A stretch of 64,000 nucleotides of DNA from a virus (Duplodnaviria; Heunggongvirae; Uroviricota; Caudoviricetes): IMG/VR virus record IMGVR_UViG_2778261087_000003. The stretch is one strand, 5' to 3'. The translations under genes and the position numbers were made by a program. Shown here one piece after another: positions 19,658 to 43,346 of the stretch (positions are counted from its first letter, which is position 1; each line of letters starts with the position of its first letter). Below the pieces are notes generated by a model, which was not told the DNA's origin, made no database searches, and was given only the letters and a program-made list of their open reading frames with translations.

Positions 19658-20752
19658 TCACGAGAAACTCTTTTCTGATGTCAGCCAACAGTGCTCGTGC
19701 ATATCTCTTGGTGGTTTTTCGACAAATGCCTCTTCAGCAATATCCCGCCAGGGGATTTGTTTAGCCCATTCAGCTATAGCGTTATGGTTTGCCGAGAATA
19801 ACGGTATTGTATAGGCCTTCAGCCAGTCTAATGTGCTGGAGTTGTGTTTTTGAGCGTGATGTTTCGCATGGTGTTTGGCGATCACGATCGTAGGCACTAC
19901 CCATTTACTACCGTCAGTCATTGTGAAGTGCATATTACGGGGAACAGATGACTTTTCCATCAACTCCCGAATCCCGGGAAATTTCCCCAAGATCAATCGG
20001 CGATATTCATCGCTATTGCGCCCACCAAACTCTTTGGCTTTGAATTCAAGATATGCTTCAGAAACGAGAGGTGAATCCTCTGTGTTTAGAGTTATCGCCG
20101 TGAAAAAACCAGCAGGATTGTTTTTACTATGGGCCAACCGGTGATGCGAATCATAAAAGTACCCTTTCTCGCGTTCCGATGGTTTCGACAGCAACAGCAG
20201 GCGCGAGTCATAATTGGTTAAATTGCCTGTTATCACTGCATGAGCGCGATCGCTGATTTCCGCCGAGTTAATAACGATGAAAAGATCGTGCGGTCCAGTA
20301 AAACCAGCCAGAGATACTTCGTTATTCAGACAATAGGTTATATAGACGCATCCCCATGTTTCACTGGTATGCACCAACCCTTTGTCAGGGTGCATTCTGA
20401 AATGATTGCCAAGAAAAGGGTGTCTTTGGGTAACTCGCTCCCAATAACGGAACATATAGTCAATTATTGTTTTTCGACTATCGTTAATCGCAGGAGAAAC
20501 AACCACTGTACGGGAACACGAATACAGTATTGTTTGCAGGATGCTAATCACTGCCACAATAGAGGTTTCCCCAATACCATGTGGTGTGGTGGCAGTGACT
20601 TTGGCTCCGGTGTTCTTTATCGCGTTAATAATTTTTGCTTGATGAGGTGTTAACTCAATATCAAGCAACTCTTTCGCTGCCAGTTCCCAATTGTCTTTAT
20701 ACTGTTCTATCAGTGCTAACCAGGCAGGTTCATTCTGTATACGATTAGTCAC
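19658..20752 (-). CDS. terminase large subunit (PacB) N-terminal-domain paralogue with degenerate Walker motifs
   Basis: Aligns by eye to the PacB ATPase domain (SKPSEREKGYFYDSHHRLA vs [18 protein letters not shown]; AGFFTAITLNTEDSPLV vs [17 protein letters not shown]); Walker A is HGIGETS not HGTGKS, Walker B INSAE not IDEAS; no nuclease domain. Confidence 0.7.
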   Translation of the reverse strand: MTNRIQNEPAWLALIEQYKDNWELAAKELLDIELTPHQAKIINAIKNTGAKVTATTPHGIGETSIVAVISILQTILYSCSRTVVVSPAINDSRKTIIDYMFRYWERVTQRHPFLGNHFRMHPDKGLVHTSETWGCVYITYCLNNEVSLAGFTGPHDLFIVINSAEISDRAHAVITGNLTNYDSRLLLLSKPSEREKGYFYDSHHRLAHSKNNPAGFFTAITLNTEDSPLVSEAYLEFKAKEFGGRNSDEYRRLILGKFPGIRELMEKSSVPRNMHFTMTDGSKWVVPTIVIAKHHAKHHAQKHNSSTLDWLKAYTIPLFSANHNAIAEWAKQIPWRDIAEEAFVEKPPRDMHEHCWLTSEKSFS

Positions 20753-20848: not shown

Positions 20849-21532
20849 TCATCGTGCAGGCAATGTACTGATCGAGTTCTTCAGCTCGGAGATGCTTTTG
20901 CCAATCAGAAACTGTATTTGCCAGAGCAGATCGGCATCCATAATCAGAATTTCTGCCGGGCCTTCAGGGCCAGCCGGGAAGGAAACATAAGCCTGTTTGC
21001 CCAAGCCGATAACTCGACAACTTGCTTCAAGAATTGCGCGCTTGAGGTCTGACTTTGTAACGGAAACAGGTTGGTTTTCACCAGTGATTACGCCGTTGAC
21101 ATGGAAGTGAAAGGGCATGTAGCTTGAAATTCGCTCTACTTTCCATACGCCAGCAAGCGATCCTTCATGCAGCACAATGGGGGTAACCGCGAGTTTCATC
21201 TCACCATATAACTGCTGGCAGAGAGCTGGATTGCTGAATACATCCAAAGGTTCACACTCAAACAGCGGTGCAATCTGCATGAGGTCCATCATGGTCATAC
21301 CTGGGGTACGAGCAGTAATGAATCTGCGCATTCCAGTATCCATTGTGCGCCAGATAGCTACACCATGCTTTTTGCTCACTTCTTCAGTAAAGCCAAGGTG
21401 GCACATGATGGTTTTTTCGATAGCCAGATCAGAGATAGAAACCTTTTCGCCTGGCACTCCATCATTATTGATGGTCACTTCGACACTCTGGCCATTACGC
21501 AGGCGGTATTGAATTGCTTTAGTATTTTCCAC
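20849..21532 (-). CDS. hypothetical protein
   Basis: 227-aa ORF on the same strand, downstream of the DUF2829-domain gene. Confidence 0.5.
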   Translation of the reverse strand: MENTKAIQYRLRNGQSVEVTINNDGVPGEKVSISDLAIEKTIMCHLGFTEEVSKKHGVAIWRTMDTGMRRFITARTPGMTMMDLMQIAPLFECEPLDVFSNPALCQQLYGEMKLAVTPIVLHEGSLAGVWKVERISSYMPFHFHVNGVITGENQPVSVTKSDLKRAILEASCRVIGLGKQAYVSFPAGPEGPAEILIMDADLLWQIQFLIGKSISELKNSISTLPAR

Positions 21533-21538
21533 GTTAAA

Positions 21539-22216
21539 TCACTCCACTACAAACCAGTCACATGCCAGTAAGTCGCCTACAGAAGGAACCCACGGAACAA
21601 CTACACCTTGTGCATTTTTTAAGGCGAAATAAGCACCATACGGAACGAGGTCGCCGGGGAAATATCCCTTAATGGCTTCCATTCGTGCCGGGTACTGTCC
21701 TTCAGGAACCAGCCAGCAGAATTGGTTTTCGCCGTTCCACCCGCGTCGAGCAACTTTCTTGCCATCCTTCAGCCACATCAGCGCGTCAGAAAAGTCGGCT
21801 GCTTCAAGGTCGATTTCTTCTTGTAGAGTAGCGATACCGCCAGCAGAAATAGTTACGTCCCTGGCTGTAATGAATGTCACCCCATTGTGACCTTCAATGC
21901 TGAGCAATGCCCCATTTTCGAAGAAGTCGTTAGTCCGACTAAAGCCTTCTTCAAATGTTTTTTCTGGTGAATAGGACAGAGATCCGTCCTCATAAGCGAC
22001 CAGATATCCGCCAATTTCTGGTCGGTGTTTTTGCAAAAACATTTTATCAACATGGACTTTTACCCCTTCTGGCTCAACGACTTCGATGTTGCAAAGAAGG
22101 ACCACATCCATTAGGGCGATAATTTCGATATCTTTGATTTTTGAGGCACGAACTGTTTTATGGCTTTTGTATTTTGGAAGTGCCGTCAAAAGCTCTTTCG
22201 TTGTCATATTATTCAT
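21539..22216 (-). CDS. protein with C-terminal DUF2829 (Tad2-like) domain
   Basis: Start at MNNMTT (GAGGAAAG SD 6 nt upstream); C-terminal ~85 aa ALMWLKDGKKVARRGWNG...PWVPSVGDLLACDWFVVE fits the DUF2829 pattern as I recall it. Confidence 0.6.
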   Translation of the reverse strand: MNNMTTKELLTALPKYKSHKTVRASKIKDIEIIALMDVVLLCNIEVVEPEGVKVHVDKMFLQKHRPEIGGYLVAYEDGSLSYSPEKTFEEGFSRTNDFFENGALLSIEGHNGVTFITARDVTISAGGIATLQEEIDLEAADFSDALMWLKDGKKVARRGWNGENQFCWLVPEGQYPARMEAIKGYFPGDLVPYGAYFALKNAQGVVVPWVPSVGDLLACDWFVVE

Positions 22217-22413
22217 AGTCTTTCCTCTGCTTAAAACCTGGTGTATTGCGCCTTCAGGTGGGTCAGGAATGTTTTCCCACCAGCGAAAGCAATATCTCGG
22301 GGTGTTCTTTTCGTGAAAAGCGCGTGCCATTGCCAACTTTGGCGTTTTTTAGCGAGTTCGTGCTTTTGTTGGCGTCTGGACCACCGCTTTTCTTTCAATC
22401 GTTTTTTACTCAT

Positions 22414-22902
22414 TCAAAACGGAATATCGTCGTCAAAGTCCATTGGAGGTTCGTTATTGGCGTTGCTCTGAGGTTTACCGCCACCACTGTATTGCTGGTG
22501 GTTTTGAGGTTGGTTTGATTGCCCCCAGCCGTTTGAGGGCTGTGAATCGTCACGACGAGTGCCGATCATTTGCATGGTGCCGCCCTGGCTGACGATAATT
22601 TCCGTCGTGTAACGTTCTACACCGGCGTCATCTGTCCACTTACGGGTTTTAAGTTTCCCTTCGATGTAGACCTGAGAACCTTTTCGTAAATACTCACTCG
22701 CAATTTCAGCAAGTTTTCCGAACAAAACGACTTTATGCCATTCTGTTTGCTCTTTCTGTTGGCCCGTTTGCTTGTCGCGCCATGATTCATTCGTTGCGAT
22801 GCTGAGTCTTCCGACCGCGCCGCCATTTGGTATATACCTGATCTCCGGGTCTTGCCCCAGGGTACCAATCAGGATGACTTTGTTTACACCGCGTTGTGCC
22901 AC
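22414..22902 (-). CDS. ssb: single-stranded DNA-binding protein
   Basis: 162 aa, OB-fold N-terminus, Gly/Gln-rich linker, acidic tail DFDDDIPF. Confidence 0.95.
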
Positions 22903-22921: not shown

Positions 22922-22938
22922 AAATTAATTAGAGCAAT
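22922..22938 (-). promoter_or_regulatory. C1 operator (ATTGCTCTAATTAATTT)
   Basis: One mismatch to the consensus ATTGCTCTAATAAATTT; 20 nt upstream of the ssb start. Confidence 0.6.
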
Positions 22939-40668: not shown

Positions 40669-42153
40669 TTATTCATTAAGCCATGCCAGAGCTTCATCAA
40701 CCTGCGCTTCGTCTTCGACGCTAAGCACTTCATCCTGGGGAACATAATCCGCCAGCATAGCGAAACAATATGTATCCCAATGGTCTGGTGAGTGCAGGTT
40801 GAGTTTTTTCTTCATATCCTCCTTACTCATCACCTTCCATTGACCGGCGGAGTTAATCCCTACAGGGATTTTCGACGCTTCCTCAATAGTTTCATTACCC
40901 TTATCCAGTCTCATACGACCTGATTTTACGGCCTCTGCGGCTTGAACGTTGGCATAAGCACGTTTATCAAAGTACAGGCTCTTATCTTCACGGCTATGCA
41001 TCTTTTTACCCCAGCGTATACGCTGTACGGTAATACCATAATACTCGTACATCAGATCCGCCGTTGCTTTACCCAGCCCATCGCCGTCTATCGCTATGGT
41101 GATATTTGGGAATCGCTCAGGATTACATTCTGCGAAAATTTTGGCGGCAAGCTGCGTTTCTGTAACGTCTGTGTATTCCAGCATTCGATAGTTGATTACA
41201 CGGCGTTTATTTCTCTGGCCGGACACCATCATGATATTGATAACGGACTTATCCCGTCCCGTACCACCAGCAACGTCCACACATGCAAGCCAGCCCCATC
41301 CTTTGGCAATCTTGACTTTCCGCCGCGTCGCACGTTCAACCTCATCACGTCCAAGAAGGAAGCCATCCTGTGATTTAGGGAATAGTCCGCGTACCTTAAT
41401 CATGTACATAGGGTTATCACGCCCGCCGTACTCCGCCAGCTTCATTTTGATAAATGCTGGCGTTACCAGCGGTGATTCCTCACTGTTAAGCGTGATCGCC
41501 GTATAAACGCCATCAGGGTTACCAGGACGCTTGGCCAGTTTATGGTGAGTATCGTAGAAATAGCCGCTTGGGCGTGTAGGCTGTGACAGTAATAAGATGC
41601 GGTTATCCTGTCCGGTAAGAGCACCGGTGATGATACCGAAAGCTCTATCACTGACACCGGAGGCTTCATCGATAATATACAGAAGATGATCTGCGTGTTC
41701 ACCGGCGAGAGCTTCTTCACTTCCCAGACGAAAGCCCTTCGGTACTACAGTCCATACACCTTTACCAGTAACCTCATAGAAAGCGGTTTCTGTCAGAACA
41801 AAATAATCAGCAAGCCATGGAAAACGGCTGGTGGCAGTAGCCCAGTTTATCTTGATGTACTTGAATATACCGGTCATTACCTGCTGAATTTTGTTCGCAA
41901 CGATAATGGCGCGGGCACCGGGATACATGATTATGAACAACATGATCATGATAGAAGTCATGTCTGATTTCCCGGTACCGTGACCAGACGAAACAGATGT
42001 CTTGCTGCCCTGTTCCTGCACAGACTCAATAATCAGATCCTGCTGCCAGGTAGGTGTTTTGCCGAACAAAACATCAGCGGCAGCAATCCAGTCATAACGA
42101 TATAGCGCCACCAGCTCGCGCCAACGTGGATCCGTTACGCAACTTCTGGCCAT
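40669..42153 (-). CDS. pacB: terminase large subunit PacB
   Basis: 494 aa; Walker A SGHGTGKS, Walker [13 protein letters not shown]-terminal nuclease domain. Confidence 0.95.
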
Positions 42154-43346
42154 TAATCATCATCCCCGTATAGCTTGCGGGTAACTTCTTCGTCTTCCTC
42201 CTCGTCTTCGTCCAGGTCTTGTTCCAGCCATGGGTCGTTTGATACACCTTCAGTATCAACATCTCCATAACCGCCTGTATCAACGATATCGGCGATTTCT
42301 TCCCTACGCTGCTCAATCCACAATGCGGCATCGGCGCGGCGGTTGGCGGCCCGTTCTCGCGCAACTTTGTCCAGATCTTCAAGAGAAGGGCCACCGACGG
42401 CTGTTTGCCTTTCCTCATCATCGGTATTGGTCTTAGGAGCACGCAGATCGGCTTTGATTTGCTCCAGCATCAGGGGCGGCACTTTTCCGCCATGCGCCTC
42501 GATGAATTCAGCTGCTTCCAGCACTGACCAGTTATTTTCACGCTTTCGTTCGTATGCCAGCTTAACAATGCCAGCTTGCCCCATAGATAAAGCGTGCTTT
42601 TCCGCCTCCCGGCTTTCTTTTCGATAGTTATTCCGGATGCTGTAAATGGTGTTGATCAGGCTGCTTATCTGCGCGGAACAGCTGTTTAGCATGCTCGCGA
42701 TACGATATTCAGGCGGAGTCCCTTCATCATCGTCTTTTTGCTGATCGCGCATTTCCTGCACCAGACGAATACACGTATCCCTGGCATTCTCCAGCATAAG
42801 GAGATGAGAAAGAGACTTTTCCAGAAGAGTGGTTTCCAGAACATCGGCCCCGGACCGACGCAACATAGCGCGCGCAGCCTTCCGCGCTTCAACGTTATCT
42901 ATCAGGTAATCGCCAGCTTCGAATTCAAAGCGTTCACCATCATCATCCAGGGTGTCGCGTTCCAGGCGATCACGTAAGGTCCGGTGGGCGCGGGTGATCA
43001 CGTCATGATCATCAGAACGATCATTTATGCGCTTATTTTGGCGCTTCGCATTCTCGACTGCGGCACTGACAACGGCATTAACCCTTTGTTTTTCCGCTAT
43101 TTCAGCCACAATGTGATCACCTGCATGTTGATCATTAGAGTGATCAATGATCATGCTTTTTAGTGGCTTCCTGACTGGCTTATTTGGCTTGCGGCTGTCC
43201 GCTGCCCTGGTGTCTTCTTTGAAGGCACGGAGATAACGACGTGCAGTATTAGGGTTAAGATTAAACTCGGCGGCATACTGTGCGATGGTGTAACCACCAT
43301 CTCGCGCCAGGCGAGCAAAATTCTTCTTGTGATCGTCCCAGGTCAC
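42153..43346 (-). CDS. pacA: terminase small subunit PacA (contains pac)
   Basis: 397 aa, N-terminal HTH ([12 protein letters not shown]), acidic C-terminus; pac hexamer clusters inside the gene. Confidence 0.95.
42995..43153. other. pac: pac packaging site: two clusters of TGATCA(G) hexamers
   Basis: Hexamers at 42995, 43006, ~43019 (degenerate) and 43114, 43129, 43141, 43148; each contains a Dam GATC. Confidence 0.8.

What the first reader, a model, noticed from the sequence alone, without database searches (positions are those of the whole stretch)
19658..20752. Terminase-large-subunit paralogue with inactivated ATPase motifs
This 364-aa protein aligns along the PacB N-terminal ATPase domain (SKPSEREKGYFYDSHHRLA vs [18 protein letters not shown]; AGFFTAITLNTEDSPLV vs [17 protein letters not shown]). 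Its Walker A lysine is replaced (HGIGETS vs HGTGKS), its Walker B acidic pair is lost (INSAE vs IDEAS), and it lacks the C-terminal nuclease domain. It is encoded far from pacAB, next to the dar/ddr head-protein operon. A catalytically dead terminase-like protein could be a packaging regulator, a decoy, or a structural adaptor.
Basis: seen in the sequence. Interest (0 to 1): 0.5.

Follow-up and report, generated by a model that had tools for sequence, protein, structure and literature searches.

The report
Catalytically dead terminase copy in P1-like phage
A P1-like phage carries a second, shortened copy of its DNA-packaging motor protein that has lost every ATP-burning residue yet is kept under selection as an optional early gene, so it probably works by binding something rather than by packaging DNA.

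Summary
ORF 19658-20752 (-), 364 aa, aligns with the window's own PacB (40669-42153, -) at 35% identity over 275 residues (E=5e-55). Its AlphaFold model matches terminase ATPase domains. The Walker A lysine, Walker B Asp-Glu, coupling motif and a conserved arginine are all replaced, and the nuclease domain is absent.

It is not a decaying duplicate. All 22 P1-type copies examined are intact, with dN/dS of 0.22-0.37. It belongs to a clade of motif-less PacB-like proteins only 32-53% identical to one another.

The C-terminal ~95 residues are not terminase-derived. They are a widespread, unannotated, usually stand-alone early-phage domain.

The gene is the last in the C1-controlled ssb operon, not part of the dar operon. 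An IsaA-like gene always sits directly upstream, and a Tad2-like gene often precedes that. The cassette lies in the known variable region where reference P1 has isaA-IS1-isaB. About 19% of P1-like plasmids carry it.

Best reading: an optional, non-catalytic terminase mimic used in phage-host or phage-phage conflict. A decoy for terminase-sensing immunity is the favoured but untested mechanism. Role as an essential part of the packaging machinery: excluded, since reference P1 lacks the gene; an optional modulator is still a rival. No description was found in the papers I could search.

The parts
19658..20752 (-). ORF364: PacB-derived pseudo-ATPase fused to a small accessory domain (GTG start, stop at 19658-19660)
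   Evidence: a GAGG Shine-Dalgarno lies 5-6 nt upstream of the GTG
19967..20752 (-). residues 1-262: terminase-large-subunit ATPase-like domain, catalytically dead
   Evidence: 35% identity to PacB, E=5e-55. AF2 pLDDT ~97 over this part. Foldseek top hits are Sf6 gp2, P74-26, T4 gp17 and D6E TerL ATPase domains.
20564..20590 (-). Walker A remnant TTPHGIGET (PacB: SSGHGTGKS)
   Evidence: identical in 22/22 P1-type copies
20261..20284 (-). Walker B remnant LFIVINSA (PacB: LYIIDEAS)
19661..19945 (-). residues ~270-364: small alpha/beta domain of unknown function (C-terminal part of phrog_17928), elsewhere usually a stand-alone ~100-aa early phage protein
   Evidence: No informative fold match.
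19629..19654 (.). palindromic GC-rich hairpin AAATCCCGCC-AATT-GGCGGGATTT between the convergent hxr and ORF364 stops; likely shared terminator
   Evidence: read; the simple terminator scan did not list it
20849..21532 (-). IsaA-like gene, invariable upstream partner of ORF364. In this window it is frameshifted by a 1-nt deletion near 20890/20891. In relatives it runs to 20745 and its stop overlaps the ORF364 start (GTGAYTAA).
21539..22216 (-). Tad2-like (PF11195/DUF2829) gene, frequent third member of the cassette (probable start at Met41 of the 265-aa ORF)
   Evidence: Pfam E=2.2e-22; phrog_872 aligns to residues 41-265; co-occurrence
22414..22902 (-). ssb, first gene of the operon that ends with ORF364
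22922..22938 (-). C1 repressor operator (Ossb/Op21 equivalent), 1 mismatch to consensus, directly upstream of ssb
   Evidence: 12 sites against 0.26 expected; annotation of the homologous P1 site
40669..42153 (-). pacB, the active terminase large subunit and paralogue of ORF364

Best explanation
ORF364 is a selectively maintained pseudo-enzyme. It combines the ATPase domain of a PacB-type terminase large subunit, which has lost every catalytic motif, with a ~95-aa domain that is otherwise a common stand-alone early phage protein.

It is made early after C1 derepression, as the last gene of the ssb operon, and is translationally coupled to an IsaA-like partner. It is an optional cassette in the known variable region of P1-like phage-plasmids and is often linked to a Tad2-like sponge gene.

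It cannot hydrolyse ATP or cut DNA, so it must act by binding. The most likely mode is as a terminase look-alike in a conflict function: it occupies a factor that normally recognises the PacB ATPase domain. My favoured target is a host terminase-sensing immune receptor (Avs1-3 or Upx type), engaged before the real PacB appears late in infection.

Shown: homology, fold, motif loss, purifying selection, clade, gene pairing, accessory distribution, operon position.

Inferred: early expression, non-catalytic binding, conflict role.

Speculative: the identity of the target. I put the decoy step alone at about 0.25.
For: - Homology and fold.
- Complete loss of the catalytic set. Walker A S/G/T/K/S, Walker B D/E/S, H152, the Q190/T192 coupling motif and R194 are all lost, while the core and lid motifs are kept.
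- Clade. Motif-less relatives form one clade inside the PacB-like terminases (NJ tree, 61/100 bootstrap for the 9 members; in 100/100 replicates their clade held no motif-bearing protein, only the two other motif-less sequences, P0043 and P0060, which sit beside them in the tree; a third, P0042, branches elsewhere). Of the 137 of 141 representatives scored at both the Walker A Lys and Walker B Glu positions, 122 keep both.
- Selection. 22/22 copies are intact, with dN/dS of 0.22-0.37.
- Accessory status. The gene is absent from reference P1. It is in 120 PLSDB plasmids against 617 that carry pacB, and in 100 of 5426 complete E. coli genomes.
- Mobile cassette. The same IsaA-like + dead-PacB (+ Tad2-like) block sits after pacAB-c1-cre in divergent phages.
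- Fast divergence. Dead paralogues are 32-53% identical to one another where the cognate PacBs are 61-89% identical.
- Early operon. There is a C1 operator upstream of ssb, tight same-strand packing and no internal promoter-like site on the - strand.
- The C-terminal domain family lives in early accessory regions of lambdoid prophages.
- Precedent. Stand-alone terminase-ATPase-like phage proteins (T4 vs.8, Ksap2) fit the Avs2 terminase pocket. Avs2 recognition uses the ATP bound to the terminase, which a dead P-loop could not supply (bioRxiv 10.64898/2026.04.30.721860; PMC11564622).
Against: - No binding partner was tested.
- There are no hits to anti-defence or defence models (PADLOC, NCBIfam, Pfam).
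- The known terminase look-alikes (vs.8, Ksap1/2) activate Avs2 rather than block it.
- The Tad2-like neighbour is missing from most P1-type loci, so that association is loose.
- The contexts next to ssb, ban/DnaB and Erf fit a replication or recombination role equally well.
- In this window the IsaA-like partner is frameshifted, so the cassette may not be fully functional here.
- Early expression is inferred from operon layout only.
Confidence: 0.45

Rival explanations
1. Modulator of the phage's own packaging. The dead ATPase domain binds PacA (small subunit), PacB or the portal, and tunes or delays pac cleavage and motor assembly, for example by preventing premature cutting early in infection or by altering headful or transduction behaviour.
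For: It is a PacB paralogue from the same lineage. The N-terminal helices (DPRW..L...Y..W..A) and lid motifs (GYFYDSHH, EDSPLV, YGGRDS..YR) are shared with active PacBs. In other terminases the N-terminal region contacts the small subunit (my own background knowledge, not tested here).
Against: - The gene is optional: reference P1 and ~80% of P1-like plasmids package without it.
- The cassette moves independently of pacAB.
- There is no higher similarity to the cognate PacB than to foreign PacBs, in the N-terminus or overall.
- It sits in an early C1-controlled operon, not in a late one.
- ORF364 itself has the least PacB-like N-terminus of the clade (29%).
Confidence: 0.2
2. Accessory factor of early DNA replication or recombination. 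The small C-terminal domain docks on replication or recombination proteins (SSB, DnaB-like helicase, Erf-type annealase), and the dead ATPase domain supplies DNA or protein binding.
For: - ORF364 lies in the ssb operon.
- The 36%-identical relative L041 lies directly downstream of the DnaB-like ban gene.
- The stand-alone domain follows DnaB-type helicase genes in lambdoid prophages and in phage JK004.
- In Xanthomonas phage CP2 the domain ends a 511-aa protein next to the Erf, exonuclease and SSB genes.
Against: Those same regions are the classic dumping grounds for non-essential accessory genes (Ead/Ea22, Lar, DUF551 are neighbours). The domain has no fold match to any DNA-metabolism protein. 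Nothing explains why a terminase domain would be recruited.
Confidence: 0.12
3. Weapon against competing phages or satellites. It is a poison subunit that co-assembles with, or titrates the small subunit of, related incoming phages and blocks their packaging.
For: It is a dead subunit of an oligomeric motor with an accessory, fast-evolving and mobile distribution.
Against: It sits behind a C1-repressed promoter, so it is probably silent in the lysogen. It would be expected to poison the resident PacB as much as a foreign one. There are no PADLOC hits.
Confidence: 0.1
4. Functionless remnant of a duplicated or captured terminase gene on its way to loss.
For: Catalytic motifs are destroyed. The gene is absent from many relatives. 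The partner gene is frameshifted in this window.
Against: - Intact with an identical start in 22/22 copies, dN/dS 0.22-0.37.
- Full-length orthologues at 36-52% identity in divergent phages.
- A whole clade of motif-less relatives.
- Conserved gene pairing with overlapping stop and start.
- A confident fold prediction.
Confidence: 0.03

Closest known systems
PacB, terminase large subunit of phage P1 and relatives (window 40669-42153)
   Same: Same ATPase-domain fold and clear common ancestry (35% identity, E=5e-55). Shared N-terminal helices, Q motif, LAG motif and lid motifs. Same PHROG (phrog_5902).
   Different: - No Walker A lysine, no Walker B Asp-Glu, no coupling motif, no conserved Arg and no nuclease domain.
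- Not next to pacA.
- Early rather than late operon.
- Optional rather than essential.
- Carries an unrelated C-terminal domain.
Stand-alone terminase-ATPase-like phage proteins: T4 vs.8 and, more loosely, Ksap2 (bioRxiv 10.64898/2026.04.30.721860; PMC11564622)
   Same: Non-essential phage proteins that resemble a terminase ATPase domain without a nuclease domain. Their function is unknown, and those authors suspect a role in defence or counter-defence.
   Different: - vs.8 is reported to keep its Walker A and B motifs; ORF364 and its clade have lost them.
- vs.8, Ksap1 and Ksap2 are known as activators of Avs2; no such test exists for ORF364.
- No sequence comparison with vs.8 was made here.
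- ORF364 has an extra C-terminal domain and a fixed IsaA-like partner.
IsaA / isaA-IS1-isaB variable region (RD-2) of P1-like plasmids (PMC6906374, PMC9603915)
   Same: Same genomic slot between hxr and ssb. The IsaA-like partner is 94-98% identical to most of P1 IsaA. Homology with P1 stops within a few bases of the ORF364 start on one side and at the hxr stop on the other.
   Different: Reference P1 has IS1 and the unrelated isaB in place of ORF364. The papers describe the region as variable but do not mention a terminase paralogue.
phrog_17928 / ~100-aa early phage proteins (e.g. Cronobacter phage JK004 gene_35, C-terminus of Xanthomonas phage CP2 ORF36)
   Same: The C-terminal ~95 residues of ORF364 belong to this family: the stand-alone members match it at about E=1e-41 when searched with the domain alignment A7, and the invariant M-D-S-W-P...T-PLF...WA...W...W pattern is shared.
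   Different: These proteins are usually free-standing. Only the ORF364 subclade (C-terminal) and P0023 (N-terminal) fuse the domain to a dead terminase domain.

Membership tests
Terminase large subunit (TerL, PacB type) | ASCE P-loop ATPase fold of the TerL type | tested here: met
   AF2 pLDDT ~97 over residues 1-262. Foldseek PDB hits are Sf6 gp2, P74-26, T4 gp17 and D6E (E down to 4e-9). BLASTP to PacB gives E=5e-55.
Terminase large subunit (TerL, PacB type) | Walker A GxxxxGK[ST] | tested here: not met
   The sequence is PHGIGET: Lys is replaced by Glu and the first Gly by Pro. The Lys position holds E/R/H/T/M/I/C across the clade.
Terminase large subunit (TerL, PacB type) | Walker B hhhhDE with catalytic Glu | tested here: not met
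   FIVIN replaces YIIDE.
Terminase large subunit (TerL, PacB type) | Coupling (C) motif and conserved Arg after it (SQPTR in PacB) | tested here: not met
   In the active relatives Gln190 and Thr192 are invariant and Arg194 is kept in 88%. All three vary in the dead clade.
Terminase large subunit (TerL, PacB type) | C-terminal RNase-H-like nuclease domain | tested here: not met
   Nothing aligns to PacB 275-494. The C-terminus is a different ~95-aa domain.
Terminase large subunit (TerL, PacB type) | Encoded next to a small-subunit gene in the late packaging module | tested here: not met
   It lies in the ssb operon, ~20 kb from pacA. The upstream IsaA-like gene is unrelated to PacA (hhalign probability 0.1).
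Stand-alone terminase-ATPase-like accessory proteins (T4 vs.8 type) | TerL ATPase-like domain without a nuclease domain, non-essential | tested here: met
Stand-alone terminase-ATPase-like accessory proteins (T4 vs.8 type) | Conserved Walker A/B motifs (as reported for vs.8) | tested here: not met
   the vs.8 description comes from bioRxiv 10.64898/2026.04.30.721860
Stand-alone terminase-ATPase-like accessory proteins (T4 vs.8 type) | Binds or activates Avs2 | not testable with these tools
   This needs co-expression toxicity assays or co-folding with Avs sensor domains.
phrog_5902 | Full-length match to the profile | tested here: met
   E=6e-183 over residues 2-364. PacB also matches this profile, so it lumps active and dead forms.
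phrog_17928 C-terminal domain / ~100-aa early phage protein family | Match to the conserved ~95-aa domain, including the invariant D-S-W-P, F and W residues | tested here: met
   phrog_17928 positions 407-501, E=7e-13. Alignments A7 and A8. 1559 related clusters.
Known anti-phage defence system components (PADLOC) | Match to any PADLOC model | tested here: not met
   0 hits at E<=0.1 for ORF364, the IsaA-like, the Tad2-like and Hxr proteins.

The most novel reading that the evidence does not exclude
ORF364, with its IsaA-like partner, is a new kind of anti-defence protein: a nucleotide-free terminase mimic made early in infection. It occupies the terminase-binding pocket of host immune sensors (Avs1-3 or Upx type) without providing the terminase-bound ATP or the surfaces needed for activation. 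The real PacB made later then goes unseen. The frequent linkage to a Tad2-like sponge would make the cassette a small counter-defence island.
Probability: 0.2. Interest if true: 0.85.

Novelty: new variant of a known kind. Interest (0 to 1): 0.55.

Why it matters
Terminase large subunits are among the most conserved phage proteins and are a main target of bacterial pattern-recognition immunity. A conserved clade of terminase ATPase domains that have shed all catalytic residues would be an example of a phage pseudo-enzyme built from the packaging motor that I found undescribed in the literature searched. These proteins are kept under selection as optional early genes.

If the protein blinds terminase sensors, it would be a new counter-defence principle.

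It is also practically relevant. The gene sits in about one fifth of P1-like phage-plasmids of E. coli, Salmonella and Klebsiella, including elements that carry resistance genes. Automatic pipelines annotate it either as 'hypothetical protein' or, misleadingly, as 'terminase large subunit'.

The study also defines two uncharacterised families that travel with it: IsaA-like proteins and a very common ~100-aa early phage domain.

Tried and rejected
- IsaB of reference P1 as a remnant of ORF364: no significant similarity (E=0.095).
- IsaA-like as a PacA (small-subunit) paralogue, which would make the cassette a degenerate pacAB duplicate: hhalign probability 0.1.
- Co-variation of dead paralogues with the PacB of the same genome: none, overall or in the N-terminus.
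- Identity of IsaA-like: no Pfam, NCBIfam, PADLOC or PDB hits.
- The word-indexed homologue search with ORF364 or the clade profile was insensitive, giving 3 and 11 hits. The exhaustive representative search was needed.
- The search for related loci with the 9-member alignment failed for lack of a conserved stretch. Narrower alignments worked.
- Literature searches for an inactive or decoy terminase paralogue found no description.
- The simple promoter scan found no - strand promoter inside the cassette, and the terminator scan did not list the hxr/ORF364 hairpin.
- No comparison with the T4 vs.8 sequence was made.

Full report
**What the window is.** The window is a P1-like phage-plasmid (Punavirus) in the opposite orientation to the reference P1 record. 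Around the finding the gene order is:
- darA-ddrA-ddrB-hxr on the + strand;
- then, on the - strand, ssb, a 60-aa ORF, a Tad2-like gene, an IsaA-like gene and the 364-aa ORF;
- then lyz, pro, prt, darB and further genes.

pacA and pacB lie at 42153-43346 and 40669-42153, with c1 and cre next to them.

**Check of the observation.** The ORF is at 19658-20752 (-), with a GTG start and 364 codons.
- Walker A reads TTPHGIGET against SSGHGTGKS. Walker B reads FIVINSAE against YIIDEASG.
- PacB residues 275-494 have no counterpart.
- An AlphaFold2 model built on a 58-sequence alignment has mean pLDDT 88.5, about 97 over residues 1-262.
- Its best PDB matches are the terminase ATPase domains of Sf6 gp2, P74-26, T4 gp17 and D6E.

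**It is a maintained pseudo-enzyme, not a wreck.**
- An exhaustive profile-free search of 1.8 billion representatives gave 658 relatives.
- Among the 141 of at least 200 aa, 122 keep the Walker A Lys and Walker B Glu and 4 could not be scored. The 15 that do not include all the closest relatives of ORF364 and are all short, nuclease-less proteins apart from ORF364's own 438- and 444-aa relatives.
- Nine of these form one clade inside the PacB-like terminases. Bootstrap support in the NJ tree is 61/100. In all 100 replicates the smallest clade holding the nine contained no motif-bearing protein, only the other motif-less sequences P0043 and P0060. A third motif-less sequence, P0042, branches elsewhere in the tree.
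- Comparing this clade with 16 active relatives, the whole catalytic set has gone: Walker A S/G/T/K/S, Walker B D/E/S, His152, the Gln190/Thr192 coupling motif and Arg194. The replacements vary from member to member.
- The Q motif, the LAG motif and the lid motifs (GYFYDSHH, EDSPLV, YGGRDS..YR, G.FP) are retained.
- All 22 P1-type copies recovered from IMG/VR and the window are intact, with the same GTG start and the same degenerate motifs. Pairwise dN/dS is 0.22-0.37 for the more diverged pairs (dS 0.06-0.17).
- Full-length orthologues exist at 46-52% and 36% identity in other ~60-95 kb phage contigs that each also encode a normal PacB.

**The C-terminus is a second, unrelated module.**
- Residues ~270-364 match the C-terminal end of phrog_17928.
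- They align with a ~100-aa protein family that has at least 1559 clusters and no Pfam model.
- These proteins are usually free-standing. In lambdoid prophages they lie between the DnaB-type helicase gene and ninB, among Ead/Ea22, DUF551 and Lar-type genes.
- In the P1-like Cronobacter phage JK004 the domain is encoded two genes after ban.
- In Xanthomonas phage CP2 it ends a 511-aa DUF1351-like protein next to the Erf, exonuclease and SSB genes.
- One metagenomic protein (P0023) has the domain N-terminal to a dead terminase domain. This independent fusion argues that the two modules work together.
- The domain folds confidently (pLDDT 87.6) but has no informative structural neighbour.

**Genomic setting.**
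- ORF364 is convergent with hxr. A perfect GC-rich palindrome lies between the two stops.
- Upstream on the same strand the genes are tightly packed back to ssb. A C1 operator with one mismatch sits at 22922-22938, where P1 has Ossb/Op21.
- No promoter-like site was found on the - strand inside the cassette.
- ORF364 is therefore most simply the distal gene of the C1-controlled early ssb operon. This is an inference from layout. The gene is not part of the dar operon.
- Homology with reference P1 ends exactly at the hxr stop on one side and a few bases past the ORF364 GTG on the other.
- In between, P1 has IS1 and the unrelated isaB. This is the published variable region 'RD-2 / isaA-IS1-isaB' of P1-like plasmids. 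The papers describing it do not mention a terminase paralogue.

**A conserved gene pair and a mobile cassette.**
- In every ORF364-type locus with an upstream flank to examine (L003-L040, 36 loci), an IsaA-like gene lies directly upstream of the dead terminase, at 42-98% identity.
- The exceptions are L041, where the 36%-identical relative follows ban instead, and the loci of the shorter relatives (L078-L081), where any IsaA-like gene lies kilobases away.
- In the relatives checked the IsaA-like stop overlaps the ORF364 start (GTGAYTAA), which suggests translational coupling.
- A Tad2-like (PF11195) gene precedes the pair in the window, in four other P1-type loci and in nearly all of the 46-52% group.
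- In that divergent group the block sits after pacA-pacB-c1-cre, a different place in the genome.
- The cassette is optional. It is in 120 PLSDB plasmids against 617 carrying pacB, about 19%, and in 100 of 5426 complete E. coli genomes.
- The dead paralogues are only 32-53% identical to each other where their cognate PacBs are 61-89% identical. They are no closer to the PacB of their own genome than to foreign ones.

**Interpretation.** A protein with this history cannot hydrolyse ATP or cut DNA, so it must act by binding.
- Several features point to a conflict function rather than a core packaging role: optional carriage, a hypervariable slot, fast divergence, independence from pacAB, early-operon position, an accessory-type C-terminal domain and frequent linkage to a Tad2-like sponge gene.
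- The literature offers a concrete frame. Avs1-3 and Upx sense terminase large subunits. Avs2 recognition involves the ATP bound to the terminase. Stand-alone terminase-like proteins (T4 vs.8, Ksap2) fit the same pocket and have no known function.
- An early-made, nucleotide-free mimic that engages such sensors without activating them is my favoured mechanism. It is untested, and I give that specific step about 0.2-0.25.

**Rivals.**
- A modulator of the phage's own PacA/PacB. It is weakened by the optional distribution, the lack of co-variation and the early operon.
- A replication or recombination accessory. It is supported by the ssb, ban and Erf contexts, but these are also generic accessory regions.
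- A poison subunit against competing phages. It is weakened by C1 repression.
- A dying pseudogene. It is contradicted by the selection and conservation data.

**Limits.**
- No partner was identified, and no defence or anti-defence model matches any cassette protein.
- Expression timing is inferred from layout.
- In this particular window the IsaA-like partner carries a 1-nt deletion, so the cassette may be impaired here, or the base may be a sequencing error.
- The NJ tree is a simple distance tree with moderate support for the nine-member clade.

**Verdict.** The finding is real and reproducible. The gene is a new variant of a known kind: a terminase-derived pseudo-ATPase with a fixed partner gene. 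I found no description of it in the papers I could search, and existing annotation is inconsistent ('hypothetical protein' or 'terminase large subunit'). Interest is moderate and would rise sharply if the decoy mechanism holds.

Noticed in passing
window 20849-21532 (-), deletion at ~20890/20891: The IsaA-like gene has a 1-nt deletion (GCATC-TCCG against GCATCATCCG in P1, L008 and L020). This shifts the frame and ends the ORF at 20849 instead of 20745, removing the stop/start overlap with ORF364. It is either a real mutation or a sequencing error.
   Followed up: yes
window 21539-22336 (-): This gene has a C-terminal Tad2-like/DUF2829 domain (PF11195, E=2.2e-22) and an unannotated N-terminal part. 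The true start is probably Met41 (22216). It is present in only a subset of P1-type loci but in nearly all loci of the divergent group. It may be a signalling-nucleotide sponge.
   Followed up: partly
window 22231-22413 (-): A lysine/arginine-rich 60-aa ORF starts one base after the ssb stop. It is conserved at 92% identity in L020. Its function is unknown.
   Followed up: no
window 19629-19654: A perfect palindrome AAATCCCGCC-AATT-GGCGGGATTT lies between the convergent hxr and ORF364 stops. It is likely a shared terminator. The T-run is good only on the + strand.
   Followed up: partly
window, 12 sites including 22922, 39135, 39218, 55946, 61711: There are twelve matches (at most 3 mismatches) to the 17-bp C1 operator consensus, against 0.26 expected. 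This marks the C1 regulon across the window.
   Followed up: no
protein P0142 (675 aa, representative search): This terminase homologue has a ~200-residue insertion inside its Walker A motif (SGTG C...HN TGKT). The insertion looks like an intein.
   Followed up: no
protein P0023 (246 aa): The small early-phage domain is fused N-terminally to a dead PacB-like ATPase domain, the reverse order to ORF364. The protein appears cut at its C-terminus.
   Followed up: partly
proteins P0010 (444 aa) and L081 9911-11326: Some members of the dead clade carry a different, unannotated C-terminal extension of ~180-200 aa instead of the small domain. Others (P0006, P0007, P0009, P0012, P0014) are ATPase-domain-only proteins of 252-266 aa.
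   Followed up: no
L002 (reference P1) 4998-5010 against window 20740-20752: Reference P1 keeps the GTG and a few bases of the ORF364 start at the end of isaA, and homology resumes exactly at the hxr stop. The alternative cassettes of this variable region are therefore exchanged at gene boundaries.
   Followed up: yes
L041 8610-11089 and L082 (phage JK004) 2360-4297: In Cronobacter-type P1-like phages the dead terminase (L041) lies directly downstream of the DnaB-like ban gene, and in JK004 the free small domain lies two genes after it, rather than next to ssb.
   Followed up: partly
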